From assembly GCA_021534775.1 (NCBI GenBank), contig GCA_021534775.1_4809.1: 30,283 nucleotides of DNA, one strand, 5' to 3'. The position numbers and the translations under genes were made by a program. The notes beneath the pieces were generated by a model. That model searched no databases, was not told where the DNA came from, and saw only the letters and a list, made by a program, of their open reading frames with translations. This DNA is from a phage. Below, piece by piece: positions 2,819 through 22,419 of the stretch. The stretch's first letter is position 1. The number at the start of each line of letters is the position of its first letter.

Positions 2819-3199
2819 ATGTCAAATAAAAATGATTCTATGAGCCATACTTACACTAAAGGCAGCGGCACTGCTTTTGGTTCCAGCATCAAAATTGACG
2901 CTCCACCTTGCTATTCTGATGGATTGGAAGTTGGCAACCGTGACTTGACTTGGGTTTTACGTCGCCAATCCGATTTAGAAGAGAAGTTGGAAAATATTGC
3001 GCGTTCTCTTGAAAGTCTGCGCGACCAGCTTTTTGGTTGTTCTGAAGATGATTCTAAATCTCCAGAGTATTGTGTTAATCACGGTTTGATTGATAATATG
3101 CTCGCCATAACCGCTCGATCAATTGGTAAAACTGTGTCCATTGAGTCGTTGATCAGCCAGATTGCGGACGGCTTTGGTGATGCCCATAAGAGTGAATAG
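2819..3199 (+). CDS. Hypothetical protein (126 aa; ORF-track start 2753 is probably too far upstream)
   Basis: Internal in-frame ATG at 2819 preceded by aaagg; the N-terminal 22 codons of the track ORF are hydrophobic read-through of the intergenic region. Confidence 0.5.
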   Translation: MSNKNDSMSHTYTKGSGTAFGSSIKIDAPPCYSDGLEVGNRDLTWVLRRQSDLEEKLENIARSLESLRDQLFGCSEDDSKSPEYCVNHGLIDNMLAITARSIGKTVSIESLISQIADGFGDAHKSE

Positions 3200-3229
3200 T
3201 GGGTGGATGTTGCTTTAACCGTGAATCGT

Positions 3230-3256
3230 GGGTCGCTTAGGGCGGCCCTTTATTTT
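3230..3256 (+). terminator. Intrinsic terminator ending the plus-strand late operon
   Basis: Stem gggtcgc / gcggccc (one G-U pair), 5-nt loop, then tttatttt. Confidence 0.55.
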
Positions 3257-3842
3257 GCCTGCCGCGCAGGAGTGTACTGCAAATTTCCTGTGGGTACAAA
3301 ATAGTACGGTACTGTCTAGGACTTTTTCTTTGAAAAGTTAGTGGACCAAATGTGTCGTATTTTTGATTAGTGTACCGCAAATTCCATCAAGTAGCAAAAC
3401 GCACCAAAAGACCCATGCCATAAAAACCACACGAACGCAATAATCAATCGACGTTACAGTTTCCAGCGTTACAATTCGAAAGCGAATGATTCGACGCATA
3501 ATAATATGAAGCATAATGATTCGAAAGCGAGTGATTGCGTGTAGGATAATATCGGTGGGGATTATTCTAGATGCATGTAATTTCGCATGCGTACTATTTT
3601 CGGACGAAGGGTCGGCATATTCCTCGTTTTAGTTCGGAACGAAGGGAAAGTTTTGCGCCTTTATAAAACAACGACTTACGCGACCCGCCTTAACGGTCCG
3701 ATATAGGTGTCTATATAAAACAAGGACTTACGCGATGTTCTCCATTTAACGTAATACCTGTTATGCGAACTAAGGCGCATCTCGACGAAGATTATGCGAC
3801 GACGAAGGGAAGGATAAAGGAGTTTTCGCGGAGAAGCGCATC
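3257..3842. repeat. Repeat-rich non-coding region between convergent terminators
   Basis: No ORF of 60 aa or more on either strand. Direct repeats of gacgaaggg at 3603, 3638 and 3801; attcgaaagcga(a/g)tgatt twice (about 3474 and 3520); GTAC-containing motifs gtactgcaaattt (3274) and gtaccgcaaatt (3372). Confidence 0.6.
3662..3735. repeat. Pair of 22-bp direct repeats TATAAAACAA(C/G)GACTTACGCGA
   Basis: Copies at 3662-3683 and 3714-3735 with one mismatch, 52 bp apart. Confidence 0.7.
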
Positions 3843-3872
3843 GAGATAGGGGCGAAGAAAAGCCGCGACTAA
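3843..3872 (-). terminator. Intrinsic terminator for minus-strand gene 3900-4190
   Basis: On the minus strand: GCCGCG cttagt CGCGGC followed by ttttcttcg. Confidence 0.55.
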
Positions 3873-3899
3873 GCGCGGCCTATTAGTAACGGAAGGATA

Positions 3900-4190
3900 T
3901 TATAAGGAGACAATTTTAAAATAAGTTACTTCGCCGCCGAGTTGCGGTACAGCGAGATATTCGCCGCCGATTTCGGTAATCGTATAGACGAAGCCGTTAA
4001 TCGTTACGCGGGATGATACGATGTCCTCGTCGCGATACTTGTAAAGGTCGAGGAAGTTGATCGGCTCATAAATAGGTTCGATAGTTGCGTCTACGTTAGA
4101 GAGATAAACGCTCTCTAAGGTTTCGCCAAATACGTTAGAGTTTTCGGAAGTCTCGACGCGAGCGGAACGGATAGCGGCTAAAGTAATCAT
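3900..4190 (-). CDS. Small acidic protein (96 aa), hypothetical
   Basis: ORF with RBS aggag 7 nt upstream of ATG in the conserved context ccaactaggagattattATG; about 14 Asp/Glu versus 6 Lys/Arg. Confidence 0.65.
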   Translation of the reverse strand: MITLAAIRSARVETSENSNVFGETLESVYLSNVDATIEPIYEPINFLDLYKYRDEDIVSSRVTINGFVYTITEIGGEYLAVPQLGGEVTYFKIVSL

Positions 4191-4214
4191 AATAATCTCC
4201 TAGTTGGTCGGGCG

Positions 4215-4235
4215 GGTAGCGACCTATTCGCTACC
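4215..4235 (-). promoter_or_regulatory. 5'UTR stem-loop with conserved AAUAGGU loop (copy 1)
   Basis: Arms ggtagcg / cgctacc around a 7-nt loop, between the promoter and RBS of gene 3900-4190. Confidence 0.5.
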
Positions 4236-4257
4236 TCATCCCCTCTCGATATAAAAC

Positions 4258-4286
4258 ATTATAGTCTTAGTGTACGAAGAAGTAAA
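4258..4286 (-). promoter_or_regulatory. Sigma70-like promoter for gene 3900-4190
   Basis: Minus strand reads TTTACT, 17-nt spacer, TATAAT. Confidence 0.55.
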
Positions 4287-4297
4287 GCACTTTTTCG

Positions 4298-4600
4298 TTA
4301 TTCTGCAATAAAATATTTATAAGCCTTATCGCCTTCTACGTCGATATACTCGACGATAATTAACGCTTCGCCGCGCGGCGTAACCGTCTCGATAAGGGTA
4401 ACGGCTTCGTCGTCGGTCTTCGCGAAGCGGATGGCGCTACGTTCGGCGTACTTAATATCGTCGAAGGAAAGGCCGATGAAGGCGACCGCGCGGACCTTAA
4501 TGGCGCTAGATTCTAGTTCCGCGTTAACGGCGGCGATAAGAGAGCGAACGGTTAAGCGGTCTTCGTCGTAAGTAAGGATGGAAGAGATTAAAGTAGTCAT
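4298..4600 (-). CDS. Small acidic protein (100 aa), hypothetical; ORF-track start 4657 rejected
   Basis: Internal ATG (MTTLISS) preceded by gggag 7 nt upstream; the promoter -10 overlaps the track ATG at 4657, so the transcript starts downstream of it. Confidence 0.6.
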   Translation of the reverse strand: MTTLISSILTYDEDRLTVRSLIAAVNAELESSAIKVRAVAFIGLSFDDIKYAERSAIRFAKTDDEAVTLIETVTPRGEALIIVEYIDVEGDKAYKYFIAE

Positions 4601-4656
4601 AATAAAGCTCCCGATGCTAGTAGAAGAAAGGGCCATCGCCCGTCTCGATATAAACA

Positions 4657-4684
4657 AGTATACGCGAGTGTACGAAGAAGTAAA
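4657..4684 (-). promoter_or_regulatory. Sigma70-like promoter for gene 4298-4600
   Basis: Minus strand reads TTTACT, 16-nt spacer, TATACT; the upstream part (ctttacttcttcgtacact) is nearly identical to the promoter at 4258-4286. Confidence 0.5.
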
Positions 4685-4728
4685 GAAAAAAGATAAAATA
4701 ATTTATCGCATTTTTATCGAAAAAGTGC

Positions 4729-4756
4729 TTTACTTTTTTCTACACTATATTATAAT
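4729..4756 (+). promoter_or_regulatory. Sigma70-like promoter for gene 4825-5139
   Basis: TTTACT, 16-nt spacer, TATAAT. Confidence 0.55.
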
Positions 4757-4779
4757 GTACTCATATCGGGACGGGATGA

Positions 4780-4800
4780 GTTAACGAATAGGTCGTTAAC
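4780..4800 (+). promoter_or_regulatory. 5'UTR stem-loop with conserved AAUAGGU loop (copy 2)
   Basis: Arms gttaacg / cgttaac around the same 7-nt loop aataggt; the stem sequence differs from copy 1 but stays complementary. Confidence 0.5.
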
Positions 4801-4824
4801 GCCTCTCCCAACTAGGAGTTTATT

Positions 4825-5139
4825 ATGGCTATCGTTACCCGCTTTACCCTCGAAAACGCAACCGCCGAAGTCCAGGGCGTTACGCTTACTTACGGCGAAA
4901 TTCTCGCGAAATTCTCCGGCGTTCGCTTAGGCGAAGAAATTAACGACGCGACGGTAATCGAGCAACTCGCTGCTTCTCGCTTAGAGCGCGACGAAAACGG
5001 ATTCTTCGAAGTCGATGCGGAATTAAATTTATGCGGTAAAACGGCGTTTATTAACGAGTTCGAACTCGCCGTTTTAGTTAATTACGATAGCAAAGCTTAC
5101 GCCTTCGCCCTCGAATTAATCGAAGACGACGAAGAGTAA
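4825..5139 (+). CDS. Small strongly acidic protein (104 aa), hypothetical
   Basis: RBS in the context ccaactaggagtttattATG; about 22 Asp/Glu versus 7 Lys/Arg; C-terminus ELIEDDEE. Confidence 0.7.
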   Translation: MAIVTRFTLENATAEVQGVTLTYGEILAKFSGVRLGEEINDATVIEQLAASRLERDENGFFEVDAELNLCGKTAFINEFELAVLVNYDSKAYAFALELIEDDEE

Positions 5140-5219
5140 GAGAGGATTTTTAGAGCGTCGTGCGCGGCGCTTTAATAAAATTCTTTCGCGCCTAGCGCCC
5201 TAACAAATAGGAGTTTATT

Positions 5220-5846
5220 ATGGTTAGCTTAAATCGCTTTTCTACTAGCGGCGACGTTATCGCAACTAAGACCGCCGACCTCGTTGCATTCTATAATGCA
5301 AATTCCGGCTCAAAACCGATTAAGAAGTTTGCGGACCGCCGGACCGCCGAGACTCGCGTAATCGCGTTAATCGAGTCCTTAAACGCGCTCGATGAGCCGT
5401 CCAACGAATCGCCCATCCCCGACGCGAAGCCGCGCGAGGAAGTGTCCAGCGATGTAAAAACGCATAAGGCGCGTGCGGTCGTTAAAAAGGCCGAGCCGAC
5501 GCAGGAAGAACTCGACGCGATGACCGACGAAGAGTATGAAGCCTTCGTTAAGAGCGGTTTAAACGATAGTGCAAATTGCGTAGTGCAAAATGGAACTCCT
5601 TCCCATCGCCGTTCGAATAGCGAAGGCATTGCAAAAAGTTGGGATAATAAGGAAGTGGCGCAAAAGCGTCTTACCCGTAACGGCGTTATGGTCGAGGGTG
5701 TAGGCGAGTTCAAATCGGTCCGCGTAGCGTTCGCCGCGCTGGGCTTACCGGATAGCAAGCACATTCGCTTCCGCATGAAGCTTAAAGAAGCTGGACGCTT
5801 GAACTTCGAGTTCGGCAACAAGTCCTATACCTTCCAGATTATCTAA
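5220..5846 (+). CDS. Hypothetical protein (208 aa)
   Basis: Same RBS context aataggagtttattATG; contains two tandem ATAGTGCAAA motif copies at 5566-5591. Confidence 0.55.
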   Translation: MVSLNRFSTSGDVIATKTADLVAFYNANSGSKPIKKFADRRTAETRVIALIESLNALDEPSNESPIPDAKPREEVSSDVKTHKARAVVKKAEPTQEELDAMTDEEYEAFVKSGLNDSANCVVQNGTPSHRRSNSEGIAKSWDNKEVAQKRLTRNGVMVEGVGEFKSVRVAFAALGLPDSKHIRFRMKLKEAGRLNFEFGNKSYTFQII

Positions 5847-5852
5847 TCGAAT

Positions 5853-5876
5853 GGCGGCCCTTCGGGGTCGCTTTTC
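5853..5876 (+). terminator. Intrinsic terminator with UUCG tetraloop
   Basis: gcggccc ttcg gggtcgc followed by tttt. Confidence 0.6.
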
Positions 5877-5896
5877 ATAGTGCAAATTGGTGGCTT

Positions 5897-6160
5897 ATGA
5901 ATACGCTCATTCTCATCGCTACGTTGTCCATCGGAAGTGGTCGCACCTTATCCCTTTACGACCATAGTGCAAATTGTGCTTATCCTACGCGAGTTGCGGC
6001 AATAGTTAATAGTGCAAATCGAATGCTATTCGAGACTTGTTGGCGGGTCGATAACGAGAAAGGGCGCATCGTCTTAGGTTATAGTGCGAATCTGCTGGTG
6101 GAGTCGTTCGATTGGACGGTTGAAGGTCGTAAATTGTTACGTAAAGTGACTAAAAGATGA
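5897..6160 (+). CDS. Questionable ORF (87 aa)
   Basis: Short RBS spacing (ggtgg, 3 nt). Three in-frame motif copies translate as HSAN, NSAN and YSAN, so the frame may be a by-product of the DNA motif array. Confidence 0.3.
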   Translation: MNTLILIATLSIGSGRTLSLYDHSANCAYPTRVAAIVNSANRMLFETCWRVDNEKGRIVLGYSANLLVESFDWTVEGRKLLRKVTKR

Positions 6161-6274
6161 CTTATAATAATACACTTTCTAACGCGTTTATGGTTGTAAC
6201 CTTCCCCGTCGTATTACCGATGGCCCTAGAAGTGGAGAAAATGTGTTCCAGGGCCGTTTTATAGTGCAAATTGG

Positions 6275-6763
6275 CTAGTGGCGGGAGAATTGCTCACCTT
6301 CTTTGGCCGCCTCTCCAAAATCCTTGTAGAAATCGTCCATGGAACGGCCCATTTTACTATTGCCGTTTTCATCAATCATCGTGATGCCGTAGATGATATT
6401 CAGTTCACGAATAGCATTAAGCTTGGCTGACGCCGCGACTTCTGGATCACGCACAAGCTTGACCAAATTGTGAATTGCACCTTTTACGCTCCACAAATCC
6501 TTGAGTGGCATCTCTTCCATACGCTTTTTGAAGCGCATCTTGTAGTATGGATTGCGTTGCGTGCAAAGGATTCGCTGGCCAGTGTAGTTATCCGTTGCAA
6601 CTTCCATTCCAAATACTAGTGCAAAAGCTGCGCGCATGTCATGACCCTGAATAACAAGGTCAATGAACTCATCGAATAAAGCCTGATTGTGCTCTGCGAA
6701 TCGCGGGTCTTCAAAGTCTTCAGGCATCGCTACATAATCTTGACTCATAGTGCAAAATCCCAT
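6275..6763 (-). CDS. Hypothetical protein (162 aa; start may be 6748)
   Basis: Minus-strand ORF. Both candidate ATGs are created by the motif (the reverse complement of CAT in cATAGTGCAAAT). Confidence 0.55.
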   Translation of the reverse strand: MGFCTMSQDYVAMPEDFEDPRFAEHNQALFDEFIDLVIQGHDMRAAFALVFGMEVATDNYTGQRILCTQRNPYYKMRFKKRMEEMPLKDLWSVKGAIHNLVKLVRDPEVAASAKLNAIRELNIIYGITMIDENGNSKMGRSMDDFYKDFGEAAKEGEQFSRH

Positions 6764-6783
6764 AGTGCAAATTAATAGTGTGA

Positions 6784-6812
6784 ATTATACAATGGATGAA
6801 CATTATATTCAA
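6784..6812 (-). promoter_or_regulatory. Sigma70-like promoter for gene 6275-6763
   Basis: Minus strand reads TTGAAT, 17-nt spacer, TATAAT; the -10 and 5'UTR overlap the three tandem motif copies. Confidence 0.5.
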
Positions 6813-6976
6813 GTGCAGATTGATGTTCATTATGGCTATAAACGTACACAAATCATAATGCTGCGTGGATTGCGGACCGTGGTGCGTGGTGTACTGTTTG
6901 ATACGTATAAAAGAAATCCATCCCTTTCGCCGCTTGTTATGCAAATCAATGACTTAGCCGCTGCTGGCTGGTTGAA

Positions 6977-7341
6977 GCGTATCATGACGTATCATCCGTA
7001 TTGCCGCAAGTCTTTGTTTTTACTTATATCTTACGGATGATACGTTAAATATATAAATTAACATAAGTATGAGGATATGAAAAAAATTAATATAAATGTT
7101 TTTAAAATGGAGTTAATTAATTTTTCGAATTCTATATATAACGATGCTCAGTTTTATCCGTATCATCCGTAAGATTAATGTACAAGCCAGGCGCGGCAAG
7201 GGCTGTACACTCTTACGGATAGAAAACCATGACGTATCATGACGTAAGGGTGTACCACTTTTGAAAATAGGAATCCAGGAACGGCGCGGCCTGCGGCCAT
7301 GATACGCTTAATTTTTAACCGTATTTTAGGCGTATCAAATG
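6977..7341. repeat. Cluster of direct and inverted repeats flanking an AT-rich core
   Basis: Perfect 15-bp inverted repeat cttacggatgatacg (7030-7044) / cgtatcatccgtaag (7159-7173) around an AT-rich segment of about 110 bp. Further copies at 6987-7000 and 7212-7249; GC-rich islets ccaggcgcggcaagggctg and ccaggaacggcgcggcctgcggcc. Confidence 0.65.
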
Positions 7342-7606
7342 TGTTCAAAACCACGTTTCACGACCCAAGAAAATCCAATCCATAGATAGAATCTAACAAA
7401 CACCACGGACCAATAGCCATACACTATTAAAATATTAACAATCCTGTTTATATATATTTCTAAATATTTCCGCACAATTAATAAATAAAACATCACCTCA
7501 TAATTATTCCATCGCAAAACACGACCCAAACGACAAAAGGCCGCATAAAGCGACCCATTGCACACATTCCATTCTTCGAAACACGTAAACGAGTGTTCTT
7601 TATCCG

Positions 7607-21420: not shown

Positions 21421-21579
21421 TGTTGACGTAAATTTACGAAAAATAAAACTGAAAATCAGTTTAATTAAAGTGGCATTGCCGCCATAGTTTTTAGTTGCTA
21501 CTGGCGGCGACTGAAGGCATAATTAAGTTATCCCAAACGGGGAATATAAAATAAACTAATTTATTTAAGGACTGTGAAC

Positions 21580-22419
21580 ATGGCCGAAGCAATCAAAGTA
21601 TTATCCAAAGAAGAAAAACAAGCAGCTGCAGCAGAACGTCGTCGCGTGGCTGAAGAAAAACGCCTGGCTAAAAAGAAAGAAGCCGAAGAAAAACGCCAGA
21701 AGCGTGAGCAGGAAAAACAAGCCAAGCGTGAAGAAGCTGCACTGAAACGCAAGCAGGCCGCTGATGAGAAAGCACAGAAACGTGCTGAAGAAGCAGCGAA
21801 GAAAGCCAAAGAGCGTGCAGAAAAAGCTGCTGCTAAGAAAGCAGAGCGTGAAGCCGCTAAAGCAGCGAAAGAAATCGAAAAGGCAAAGGCTAAAGAAGAA
21901 GCCAAGCGCCTGAAAGCTGAACAAGCTGCTGCTAAGAAAGCAGAGCGTGATCAAGCCCGTGCTGCTGCTAAAGCAGAGAAGGAAAAGGCTAAAGAAGAAG
22001 CGAAAGCCAAACGCAAGGCAGAGCGTGAAGCTGCTAAGATTGCGGCGAAAGAAGCTGCAGAACAGCAGAAAGAACAGCGTAAGCAAGAAGCTGAAGAACG
22101 TCGCAAGGCTATCGCAGAGCGTAAGGCTGCTAAAAAGGCAAACGGTCAGCGTCGTGCAAAAGCTACTCACTTCATCTACACTGGCAACGGCCTGAGCCAG
22201 CCGCAAGAGCATTCCACCCGTGGACGCGTTCTGGCGGCGATCAAAGAAGGCGAAGTTGGCGTGGCGCAGTCTATCGATGAGCTGGGCGAAAAAGTTAAAG
22301 ATCAACTGTTTGGTGCTTCCGTTCGCTCCTACCTGAGCAAGCTGGAAGAGATGGGCCACATCGAGTTTGTCGATGTTGAATCCAACGACGATGCCGAAGA
22401 CGGTGATCAAGCGGAATAA
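21580..22419 (+). CDS. K/E/A-rich charged protein with a globular C-terminal domain (possible winged-helix)
   Basis: About 190 aa of KAEKEAAK-type low-complexity charged helix, then RGRVLAAIKEGEVGVAQSIDELGEKVKDQLFGASVRSYLSKLEEMGHIE; start taken at the ATG with RBS aagga rather than the track GTG at 21574. Confidence 0.65.
   Translation: MAEAIKVLSKEEKQAAAAERRRVAEEKRLAKKKEAEEKRQKREQEKQAKREEAALKRKQAADEKAQKRAEEAAKKAKERAEKAAAKKAEREAAKAAKEIEKAKAKEEAKRLKAEQAAAKKAERDQARAAAKAEKEKAKEEAKAKRKAEREAAKIAAKEAAEQQKEQRKQEAEERRKAIAERKAAKKANGQRRAKATHFIYTGNGLSQPQEHSTRGRVLAAIKEGEVGVAQSIDELGEKVKDQLFGASVRSYLSKLEEMGHIEFVDVESNDDAEDGDQAE

What the first reader, a model, noticed from the sequence alone, without database searches (positions are those of the whole stretch)
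3257..3842. Repeat-rich 590-bp non-coding region between convergent terminators
The late operon terminator (3230-3256) and the minus-strand terminator (3843-3872) bracket a region with no sizeable ORF but several direct-repeat families, including a 22-bp pair and three gacgaaggg copies. Possible roles are a small RNA, a genome terminus or packaging region, or an origin. I could not fold a convincing tRNA cloverleaf here.
Basis: seen in the sequence. Interest (0 to 1): 0.5.

Follow-up and report, generated by a model that had tools for sequence, protein, structure and literature searches.

The report
Phage terminal-repeat boundary in conserved spacer
This conserved, gene-free, repeat-rich stretch of an E. 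coli Wifcevirus phage genome holds one edge of the 3.7-kb terminal repeat, so it marks a physical end of the packaged DNA; this is an ordinary kind of feature, but here the sequences around the cut are laid out clearly.

Summary
Window 3257-3842 lies between convergent terminators. It has no tRNA, no Rfam match, no RNA-structure signal and no conserved ORF. It is much richer in direct repeats than shuffled sequence.

The window is a Wifcevirus (E. coli myophage; WFC, WFH, Mansfield, Bas98-101). In four independently sequenced relatives, the inner edge of the 3.5-3.9 kb direct terminal repeat (DTR) maps to the same nucleotide, window 3406|3407. These are WFH, Mansfield, Ro157lw and SP13; the Mansfield and Ro157lw ends come from PhageTerm. 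WFC maps 82 nt away, at 3324|3325. The other edge maps to 7108|7109 in all five.

So the finding is 150 bp of unique DNA plus the terminal 436 bp of the DTR. Its diversity (0.030-0.044) is 3-5 times lower than at third codon positions of neighbouring genes (0.143), which indicates purifying selection.

My best reading is a cis-acting end-formation or packaging region. The terminus location is well supported. The role of the repeats as protein-binding sites is inferred. The sRNA idea is not supported, and the origin and T5-like injection-stop ideas have no positive support.

Novelty: a new member of a known kind. Interest is modest.

The parts
3230..3257 (+). Rho-independent terminator ending the late (tail-fibre) operon
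   Evidence: annotated at the homologous place in WFC and WFH.
3257..3406 (.). 'A-out': 150 bp of unique, non-coding DNA just outside the DTR. It holds 5 GTAC sites and the D4 repeat pair.
   Evidence: Boundary mapping. Five GTAC sites against 0.32 expected per 150 bp; only 2 of 1206 windows reach 5. Diversity pi = 0.030, against 0.143 at third codon positions.
3271..3285 (+). D4 repeat copy 1, AGTGTACTGCAAATT (an extended repeat of about 35 nt ends in ...GTACAAAA)
   Evidence: conserved in the 8 genomes compared.
3369..3383 (+). D4 repeat copy 2, AGTGTACCGCAAATT. Its extended form ends 7 nt before the boundary.
3324..3325 (.). Alternative DTR boundary, as deposited for phage WFC only
   Evidence: The WFC ends were set by inspecting read ends in PacBio or Nextera data.
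3406..3407 (.). Consensus inner DTR boundary, i.e. a physical end of virion DNA (...CGCACCA|AAAGACCCATGCC...)
   Evidence: The same nucleotide in WFH, Mansfield, Ro157lw and SP13, although their DTRs are 3701, 3673, 3533 and 3899 bp long.
3407..3464 (.). Terminus-proximal block, the most conserved part of the region (pi 0.021-0.022)
3465..3552 (+). D1: two 45-bp tandem units with a 15-nt sub-period (ATTCGAAAGCGAATG...). Bas100 lacks exactly one unit.
3590..3646 (+). D3: a 22-nt pair (CGTACTATTTTCGGACGAAGGG / CGTTTTAGTTCGGAACGAAGGG) spaced 35 nt apart
   Evidence: pi 0.028-0.036.
3659..3735 (+). D2: a 25-nt pair (CTWTATAAAACAASGACTTACGCGA) spaced 52 nt apart, about 5 helical turns
   Evidence: The two copies are identical over 22 nt in four relatives; pi 0.028-0.031.
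3761..3809 (+). Short repeats: TTATGCGA x2 (3761, 3792), CGACGAAG x2 (3783, 3800) and the third CGAAGGG
   Evidence: Read directly from the sequence.
3853..3881 (-). Rho-independent terminator of the leftward genes inside the DTR
   Evidence: annotated in WFC, WFH and Mansfield.
3407..7108 (.). The direct terminal repeat (3702 bp in this window, by homology)
   Evidence: The two DTR copies are 100% identical in WFC, WFH, Ro157lw and SP13, and their boundaries map here.
6275..6748 (-). Small terminase (TerS) gene inside the DTR, about 360 bp from the other boundary
   Evidence: phmmer hit to PDB 7UXE (E217 TerS), E = 6e-34. The start codon was judged from an indel pattern in relatives.
6897..7339 (.). 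The other boundary region: terminus at 7108|7109, near the centre of an imperfect palindrome and flanked by 8 CGTATCA/TGATACG copies

Best explanation
Window 3257-3842 is the non-coding DNA that carries the inner boundary of the roughly 3.7-kb direct terminal repeat (DTR) of a Wifcevirus. The boundary is at 3406|3407, so one physical end of the packaged chromosome is made inside this block. The left 150 bp are unique sequence. The right 436 bp are the outermost, gene-free tip of the repeat.

I read the block as a cis-acting DNA element for end formation and packaging. The generic model for fixed-end DTR phages is that the terminase makes sequence-specific staggered nicks at the two repeat boundaries (here 3406|3407 and 7108|7109). 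3'-end extension with strand displacement then duplicates the repeat for the two neighbouring genomes in the concatemer. On that model, the invariant terminus-proximal block (3407-3464) and the flanking repeat families (D4 outside; D1, D3 and D2 inside) would be recognition or assembly sites for the proteins that position and process that end.

Shown: the position of the boundary in relatives, the sequence conservation, the repeat content, the absence of genes and RNAs, and TerS encoded in the DTR.

Inferred: that this particular phage has the same ends, that the cut is made by the terminase, and that the repeats bind packaging proteins.
For: 1. The window is 93-97% identical to Wifcevirus genomes.
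2. The DTR copies at the two record ends are 100% identical in WFC, WFH, Ro157lw and SP13. The inner boundary of WFH, Mansfield, Ro157lw and SP13 maps to the same nucleotide, 3406|3407, although their DTRs are 3701, 3673, 3533 and 3899 bp long. The outer boundary maps to 7108|7109 in all five. The ends are therefore set by sequence, not by distance.
3. The Mansfield and Ro157lw ends are PhageTerm calls from reads (PMC6753283; PMC6454146). [quoted passage not shown]
4. Diversity is 0.030 in 3257-3406 and 0.044 in 3407-3842, with 0.022 in the first 58 bp inside the repeat. Third codon positions of nine neighbouring genes give 0.143, and the two flanking genes give 0.134 and 0.223. This points to purifying selection on the DNA itself.
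5. Repeat content far exceeds shuffles, and the repeat units occur nowhere else in 30 kb.
6. A bona fide TerS is encoded in the DTR.
7. The generic DTR model of staggered nicks plus 3' extension is stated in PMC5557969.
8. The two boundary regions are the most repeat-rich non-coding stretches of the window.
Against: The ends of this particular phage were not measured; the assignment rests on homology.

WFC's deposited boundary is 82 nt away even though its sequence at 3407 is nearly identical. So either the cut site is not unique, as at the right end of N4, or one record is imprecise.

The two boundaries share no motif beyond chance, which argues against one simple recognition sequence.

The other boundary looks more like a classical terminase site: it has a palindrome, 8 CGTATCA copies, and lies next to terS. 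This block might therefore be only the passive place where the second nick falls.

D1 is the least conserved part, and one unit is dispensable in Bas100.

The TerS homologue of E217 showed no DNA binding in vitro (PMC9611059).

No protein-DNA interaction was or could be tested here.
Confidence: 0.55

Rival explanations
1. A T5-like control element for DNA entry (an injection-stop signal). The DTR would enter first and express its genes. The repeat-rich block at the inner end of the repeat would pause DNA transfer until a DTR-encoded function releases it.
For: The anatomy parallels T5 Repeat Region 3: an untranslated, conserved region full of repeats that straddles the end of the 10-kb left terminal repeat and is assigned to the injection-stop signal (bioRxiv 10.1101/866236). 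Here too a long DTR carries small genes of unknown function, driven by strong sigma-70-like promoters, and ends in a conserved repeat block. Ro157lw was classed as 'T5-like long DTR'.
Against: The hallmark paired DnaA boxes are absent: none matches TTATNCACA, and none matches TTATCCACA with up to 1 mismatch. No large inverted-repeat partner lies elsewhere in the DTR. No Pfam or annotated PHROG function was found for the DTR genes. Which end enters first is unknown; if the 3407 end leads, this block is at the very tip, not at the inner end. Two-step transfer has never been reported for these phages.
Confidence: 0.12
2. A replication origin, with the direct repeats acting as iterons for a phage or host initiator.
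For: There are several direct-repeat families, including a 15-nt periodic array of about 5 units. The DNA is conserved, non-coding and transcriptionally insulated.
Against: No DnaA box or IHF consensus is present. There is no marked AT-rich unwinding segment: GC is 0.35-0.55 in 60-nt windows, close to the local average. Most families have only two copies. The 15-nt array is the least conserved part, and one 45-bp unit is deleted in Bas100. The cumulative GC-skew maximum is at about 7100-7400, not here. The other boundary region is much more origin-like, with GC about 0.35 and a repeated motif in both orientations.
Confidence: 0.12
3. An expressed element: a small regulatory RNA or a micro-protein transcribed from weak promoters inside the block.
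For: Four weak (9/12) sigma-70-like matches sit in the D1 repeats on the + strand. Some annotators called 31-42 aa ORFs here in Mansfield, SP13 and kaset. ORF 3571-3666 is intact in 17 of 18 relatives. The window has a local hairpin at 3568-3596 with z = -3.6.
Against: There is no tRNA and no Rfam match. Whole-region folding z-scores are +0.22 and +0.33. The hairpin is disrupted in most relatives by GCA->TCG without compensation. Three overlapping frames are all 'intact', each is broken in at least one phage, and the substitutions are mostly non-synonymous. The block is bracketed by convergent terminators, and the strong TTTACT-N16/17-TATAAT promoters of the DTR are all outside it.
Confidence: 0.06
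4. A largely passive spacer: gene-free DNA that only keeps the repeat boundary away from genes, with repeats produced by slippage or recombination and having no function.
For: Repeat copy number varies without obvious harm: Bas100 has lost a D1 unit, and the (GTGGGTC)n tract next to the terminator varies from 1 to 6 copies. No partner protein is known.
Against: Diversity is 3-5 times lower than at synonymous-like sites of the genes on both sides. The D2 and D3 repeat units and the first 58 bp inside the repeat are almost invariant across 18 genomes. The boundary falls on the same nucleotide in four phages.
Confidence: 0.08

Closest known systems
Terminal-repeat boundaries / concatemer-junction processing sites of fixed-end DTR phages (T7/T3 short DTR; T5, SPO1 long DTR; N4)
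   Same: The virion DNA is non-permuted and has exact direct repeats at both ends. The boundaries sit at fixed nucleotides in non-coding DNA, which also carries arrays of short repeats. The generic model is staggered nicks followed by 3' extension (PMC5557969). As in N4, one end is invariant (7108|7109) while the other may have more than one position (3406|3407 and 3324|3325).
   Different: The repeat is 3.5-3.9 kb, intermediate between T7 (160 bp) and T5 (10 kb). There is no sequence similarity to any of those sites. TerS itself is encoded inside the repeat. How long repeats are generated is not known for any phage (stated in PMC6454146, citing Casjens & Gilcrease 2009). The statement that T7 has short-repeat arrays flanking its terminal repeat comes from my own knowledge and was not checked here.
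Phage T5 Repeat Region 3 / injection stop signal (iss)
   Same: It is an untranslated, strongly conserved block full of direct repeats. It straddles the inner end of a long terminal repeat that carries small early-type genes (bioRxiv 10.1101/866236).
   Different: This block has no DnaA boxes, no 131-bp inverted-repeat partner elsewhere in the repeat, and no recognisable A1/A2-type genes. It is about 0.6 kb against about 1.1 kb in T5. Two-step injection is not known for Wifcevirus.
Lambda cosB R-sites, SPP1 pacL/pacR boxes, P1 pac hexamers (TerS-binding repeat arrays next to the terminase cut)
   Same: Repeated short sequence elements lie within a few hundred bp of a sequence-specific end-forming cut (PMC9611059 for SPP1 and P22; the lambda and P1 details are from my own knowledge).
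   Different: Binding is untested. The terS gene is 2.9 kb away, next to the other boundary, and it is that other boundary which has the P1-like hexamer-type array (CGTATCA x8) and a palindrome. The TerS homologue of E217 did not bind DNA in vitro (PMC9611059).

Membership tests
DTR boundary of a fixed-end (non-permuted) DTR phage | Virion DNA carries an exact direct repeat at both ends | tested here: met
   In WFC, WFH, Ro157lw and SP13 the two terminal copies (3784, 3701, 3533 and 3899 bp) are 100% identical. This was tested in relatives that are 93-97% identical to the window, not in the window phage itself.
DTR boundary of a fixed-end (non-permuted) DTR phage | The boundary falls at a fixed, homologous nucleotide in independent isolates | tested here: met
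   Four of five isolates map to 3406|3407, with WFC at 3324|3325. The outer boundary maps to 7108|7109 in five of five.
DTR boundary of a fixed-end (non-permuted) DTR phage | Read-start pile-ups or run-off sequencing at these positions in this phage's own virion DNA | not testable with these tools
   No reads are available. PhageTerm results exist only for Mansfield and Ro157lw.
DTR boundary of a fixed-end (non-permuted) DTR phage | Terminase-dependent nicking or cutting at the boundary | not testable with these tools
   This needs biochemistry or genetics.
TerS-binding repeat array (cosB / pac type) | Repeated sequence elements next to the cut site | tested here: met
   D4 lies 24-136 nt outside the boundary. 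D1, D3 and D2 lie 58-330 nt inside it. The excess over shuffles is shown.
TerS-binding repeat array (cosB / pac type) | Specific binding by the small terminase | not testable with these tools
   TerS is present, but no binding data exist. E217 TerS showed no appreciable DNA binding in vitro.
TerS-binding repeat array (cosB / pac type) | Location next to or within the terminase genes | tested here: not met
   terS (6275-6748) lies 2.4-2.9 kb from this block and only 360 bp from the other boundary.
T5-type injection stop signal | Conserved, untranslated, repeat-rich block straddling the inner end of a long terminal repeat | tested here: met
   compare.
T5-type injection stop signal | Paired DnaA boxes (TTWTNCACA) | tested here: not met
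   No match in 3257-3842.
T5-type injection stop signal | Large inverted-repeat partner elsewhere in the repeat (IRC-spacer-IRD) | tested here: not met
   The only long-range inverted match from this block within the DTR is a 28-nt, 71% match.
T5-type injection stop signal | Two-step DNA transfer | not testable with these tools
   This needs infection experiments.
Structured non-coding RNA / tRNA | Match to a known family, or folding more stable than shuffles, with conserved pairing | tested here: not met
   ARAGORN found nothing and Rfam found nothing in the region. Folding z-scores are +0.22 and +0.33. The one local hairpin is not conserved.
Iteron-type replication origin | Three or more regularly spaced iterons plus an AT-rich unwinding element and host-factor sites | tested here: inconclusive
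   There is a 15-nt periodic array of about 5 degenerate units. However, there is no AT-rich segment, no DnaA or IHF site and no skew inflection here.

The most novel reading that the evidence does not exclude
This block, the palindrome and CGTATCA array at the other boundary, and the one-strand ATAGTGCAAAT array inside the repeat may together form the complete cis-acting signal set for making a long (3.7-kb) terminal repeat. In that reading, this block would be the site-specific second nick and strand-displacement site, possibly with alternative cut positions as in N4. Wifcevirus phages now grow on engineered E. coli K-12 (BASEL Bas98-101). That would make the unsolved question of how long terminal repeats are generated directly testable by deletion and scrambling of defined short elements.
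Probability: 0.25. Interest if true: 0.6.

Novelty: new member of a known kind. Interest (0 to 1): 0.3.

Why it matters
It settles what the unexplained spacer is: one of the two places where the ends of the packaged chromosome are made. This matters for correct genome orientation and annotation of Wifcevirus records, many of which are deposited as 'circular' or opened at arbitrary points.

It also gives a nucleotide-level map of conserved candidate signals at both repeat boundaries. This genus is being considered for therapy and biocontrol and is reported to replicate unusually fast.

How phages generate kilobase-long terminal repeats is still unknown. A compact system in an E. coli host, with short and well-delimited elements, would be a convenient place to study it.

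Tried and rejected
- tRNA and Rfam scans of the whole window, and a permissive Rfam scan of 3150-3950, found nothing. The only hit (NsiR4, E = 0.82) lies on the terminator outside the block.
- RNA folding of both strands gave no signal.
- Small-ORF conservation was tested across 18 genomes and rejected as coding evidence.
- The repeat units were searched elsewhere in the 30-kb window to test the promoter/operator idea; none was found. The D2 units were also read by eye as possible -10 elements, and no consistent -35 was seen (my own reading, not a tool result).
- DnaA-box and IHF consensus scans found nothing in the region.
- I looked for a motif shared by the two DTR boundaries in either orientation; nothing exceeded chance.
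- I looked for more distant relatives through a DTR gene in IMG/VR. Homologues at 36-38% identity exist, but they sit in gene-dense, non-syntenic contexts, so they say nothing about this block.
- Pfam and PHROG searches of the DTR proteins gave no functional names.
- A literature search on the T7 concatemer junction / pacB was swamped by 'PacBio' hits. Casjens & Gilcrease 2009 is not held.
- I did not use the metagenome or genome collection scans. All known relatives are at least 89% identical in this block, and exact-pattern scans would only add more of the same.

Full report
**What is there**

Window 3257-3842 (586 bp) lies between two terminators. The late-operon terminator has its stem at 3230-3248 followed by a T-run (-13.8 kcal/mol). 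The minus-strand terminator has its hairpin at 3860-3881 and a U-tract at 3853-3859 (-12.7 kcal/mol).

The largest ORF is 58 aa. The direct-repeat families are these:
- A 45-bp tandem pair at 3465-3552, with a 15-nt sub-period.
- A 25-nt pair at 3659-3683 / 3711-3735. Its 22-nt core is 21/22 identical.
- A 22-nt pair at 3590-3611 / 3625-3646.
- A 15-nt pair, AGTGTACYGCAAATT, at 3271 / 3369.
- Several 8-nt pairs between 3761 and 3809.

'Three GACGAAGGG' is really two exact copies plus AACGAAGGG. In most relatives the first copy is GGCGAAGGG, so the conserved core is CGAAGGG.

The repeat units occur nowhere else in the 30-kb window. Exact 9-mer repeats cover 109 nt, against 9.7 +/- 13.4 in dinucleotide shuffles; no shuffle out of 200 reached the observed value. 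The region ranks in the top 5% of equal-sized windows.

**Whose genome, and where the ends are**

The window is 93-97% identical to members of the genus Wifcevirus, which are E. coli and Shigella myophages: WFC, WFH, Mansfield, ECML-117 and Bas98-101.

Several records carry the terminal repeat at both ends. I compared the starts and ends of these records. The two copies are 100% identical and measure 3784 bp (WFC), 3701 bp (WFH), 3533 bp (Ro157lw) and 3899 bp (SP13). The Mansfield record annotates a 3673-bp repeat predicted by PhageTerm.

Mapped onto the window, the inner boundary of WFH, Mansfield, Ro157lw and SP13 falls on the same nucleotide, 3406|3407 (...CGCACCA|AAAGACCCATGCC...). WFC's boundary falls at 3324|3325. 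The outer boundary of all five falls at 7108|7109.

The repeats differ in length by up to 366 bp because of internal indels, yet the boundaries are homologous. The ends are therefore defined by sequence, not by distance.

The Mansfield and Ro157lw ends are read-based PhageTerm calls from two laboratories (PMC6753283; PMC6454146). The WFC and WFH ends were set where most reads 'ended abruptly', in PacBio or Nextera data (PMC6563267). Transposase libraries are not reliable for termini (PMC5557969). So the WFC outlier may be imprecise, or it may reflect a second cut site.

The finding thus consists of 150 bp of unique DNA ('A-out') plus the outermost 436 bp of the repeat ('A-in').

**Is the block functional?**

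I aligned 18 genomes over the block, and 8 genomes over 5.5 kb.
- Nucleotide diversity at codon positions 1/2/3 of nine neighbouring genes is 0.057 / 0.047 / 0.143.
- The two genes flanking the block have third-position diversity of 0.134 and 0.223.
- The block itself has 0.030 (A-out) and 0.044 (A-in).
- Within A-in, the first 58 bp inside the repeat have 0.022, D2 has 0.031 and D3 has 0.036.
- D1 (0.075) and 3553-3589 (0.083) are looser.
- Bas100 lacks exactly one 45-bp D1 unit.

The DNA is therefore under purifying selection as strong as on amino-acid-changing sites, and this is not a regional sweep.

**Alternatives involving expression**

- No tRNA was found.
- No Rfam family matched at gathering threshold in the window, nor at E<=5 inside the block.
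- Folding of either strand is no better than shuffles (z = +0.22 and +0.33).
- The one good local hairpin in the window (3568-3596, z = -3.6) is destroyed by GCA->TCG in most relatives without compensation.
- The ORFs on the left are broken in nearly all relatives. On the right, three overlapping frames are all 'intact', each is broken in at least one phage, and the changes are mostly non-synonymous.
- The strong TTTACT-N16/17-TATAAT promoters of the repeat all lie outside the block. Only 9/12 matches occur inside it, generated by the D1 repeat.

**Context**

The repeat carries small genes without Pfam or named PHROG families. It also carries a genuine small terminase at 6275-6748 on the minus strand, matching PDB 7UXE (E217 TerS decamer) with E = 6e-34.

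The other boundary, 7108|7109, lies in an 843-bp AT-rich non-coding stretch, a few nucleotides from the centre of an imperfect palindrome. It is flanked by 8 of the window's 11 CGTATCA copies, in both orientations.

The two boundaries share no motif beyond chance.

A further motif, ATAGTGCAAAT, occurs 9 times. All copies are on one strand and all lie in the terS-proximal part of the repeat. Seven copies are conserved in all genomes compared. It shares AGTG...GCAAATT with the D4 unit just outside boundary A, but a relationship is unproven.

**Mechanism**

For fixed-end DTR phages, the accepted outline is recognition of fixed positions, staggered nicks, and 3' extension that duplicates the repeat. 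DTR sizes range from about 130 bp to more than 10 kb, and N4 has variable right ends (PMC5557969). How long repeats are made is not understood (PMC6454146).

I commit to the reading that this block is the cis-acting region for forming one repeat end. In this reading, a nick at 3406|3407 is paired with a nick on the other strand at 7108|7109. By the geometry of 3' extension, the first nick would be on the window's + strand. The invariant 58-bp block and the flanking repeats would serve as recognition or assembly sites.

The location of the end is well supported, at about 0.9. The protein-binding role of the repeats is an inference, at about 0.45. The other boundary looks more like a classical terminase site, so this block could be the secondary or termination-side element.

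**Rivals**

- A T5-like injection-stop signal. The anatomy matches, but DnaA boxes and the inverted-repeat partner are absent.
- A replication origin. There are no DnaA or IHF sites, no AT-rich element and no skew inflection.
- An expressed RNA or peptide (evidence given above).
- A passive spacer, which is contradicted by the conservation.

**Novelty**

The 3.5-3.9 kb repeat of Wifcevirus is published, and its boundary is already a feature in one GenBank record. What is added here is threefold. First, the boundary is the same nucleotide in four isolates. Second, it lies in a selectively constrained, repeat-structured block. Third, the two boundaries have different, well-delimited sequence architectures.

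This is a new member of a known kind. It is of modest interest, and is useful mainly as a tractable entry point to long-DTR formation.

Noticed in passing
window 6764-7606 (boundary at 7108|7109): The other DTR boundary lies in an 843-bp AT-rich non-coding stretch. It sits about 5-7 nt from the centre of an imperfect palindrome (arms 7018-7044 / 7159-7185, and 7082-7091 / 7116-7125). Eight of the window's 11 CGTATCA copies cluster at 6899-7337 in both orientations, against 3.2 expected in the whole 30 kb. This looks like a classical terminase recognition and cut site next to terS.
   Followed up: partly
window 5293-6772, + strand: The motif (C/T)ATAGTGCAAAT occurs 9 times (up to 1 mismatch). 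All copies are on the + strand and all lie in the terS-proximal part of the DTR; none occurs elsewhere in 30 kb (1.0 expected). Seven copies are invariant or nearly so in the 8 genomes compared. On the minus strand one copy overlaps the terS start codon. The function is unknown: it could be a packaging signal, an operator or a translational operator.
   Followed up: partly
window 3257-3406: Five GTAC sites lie within 150 bp just outside the DTR boundary (0.32 expected; only 2 of 1206 windows reach 5). GTAC is otherwise about 2-fold under-represented in the window (65 sites against about 118 expected from length alone).
   Followed up: partly
window 3226-3234 (homologous position in Mansfield, Bas99, SP13): The heptamer GTGGGTC immediately upstream of the late terminator is a variable microsatellite. 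Counting the copy the window keeps at 3228-3234, there are 6 copies in Mansfield, 2 in Bas99 and 1 in the window; SP13 carries a 7-nt GTGAATC insertion there instead.
   Followed up: no
window 6746-6763, - strand: terS probably starts at the second ATG (6748..6746), giving 157 aa, not at 6763. Five of 8 genomes have a 1-nt indel between the two ATGs, and WFC and Mansfield annotate the shorter form.
   Followed up: partly
window 4188-4300 and 4639-4827: Inside the DTR, the promoter regions of the divergent transcription units are near-duplicates. There is a 65-nt (82%) and a 33-nt (88%) inverted pair, and 19-24-nt direct pairs about 398 nt apart. Each carries a TTTACT-N16/17-TATAAT promoter. 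These intergenic regions are the most conserved DNA measured (pi 0.019-0.021).
   Followed up: no
window 21820-22006: A 99-bp tandem repeat (1.8 copies) lies inside ORF 21574-22419. Its consensus is rich in GCT/GCA and AAA/AAG, so it would encode an alanine/lysine-rich stretch. It is the most repeat-rich spot of the window.
   Followed up: no
SP13 record (L008/L009), homologous to window 3406 and 7108: Compared with the other phages, SP13 has one extra A/T at both junctions between the unique region and the DTR. This could be real homopolymer variation or an end-repair/A-tailing artefact carried into the assembly.
   Followed up: no
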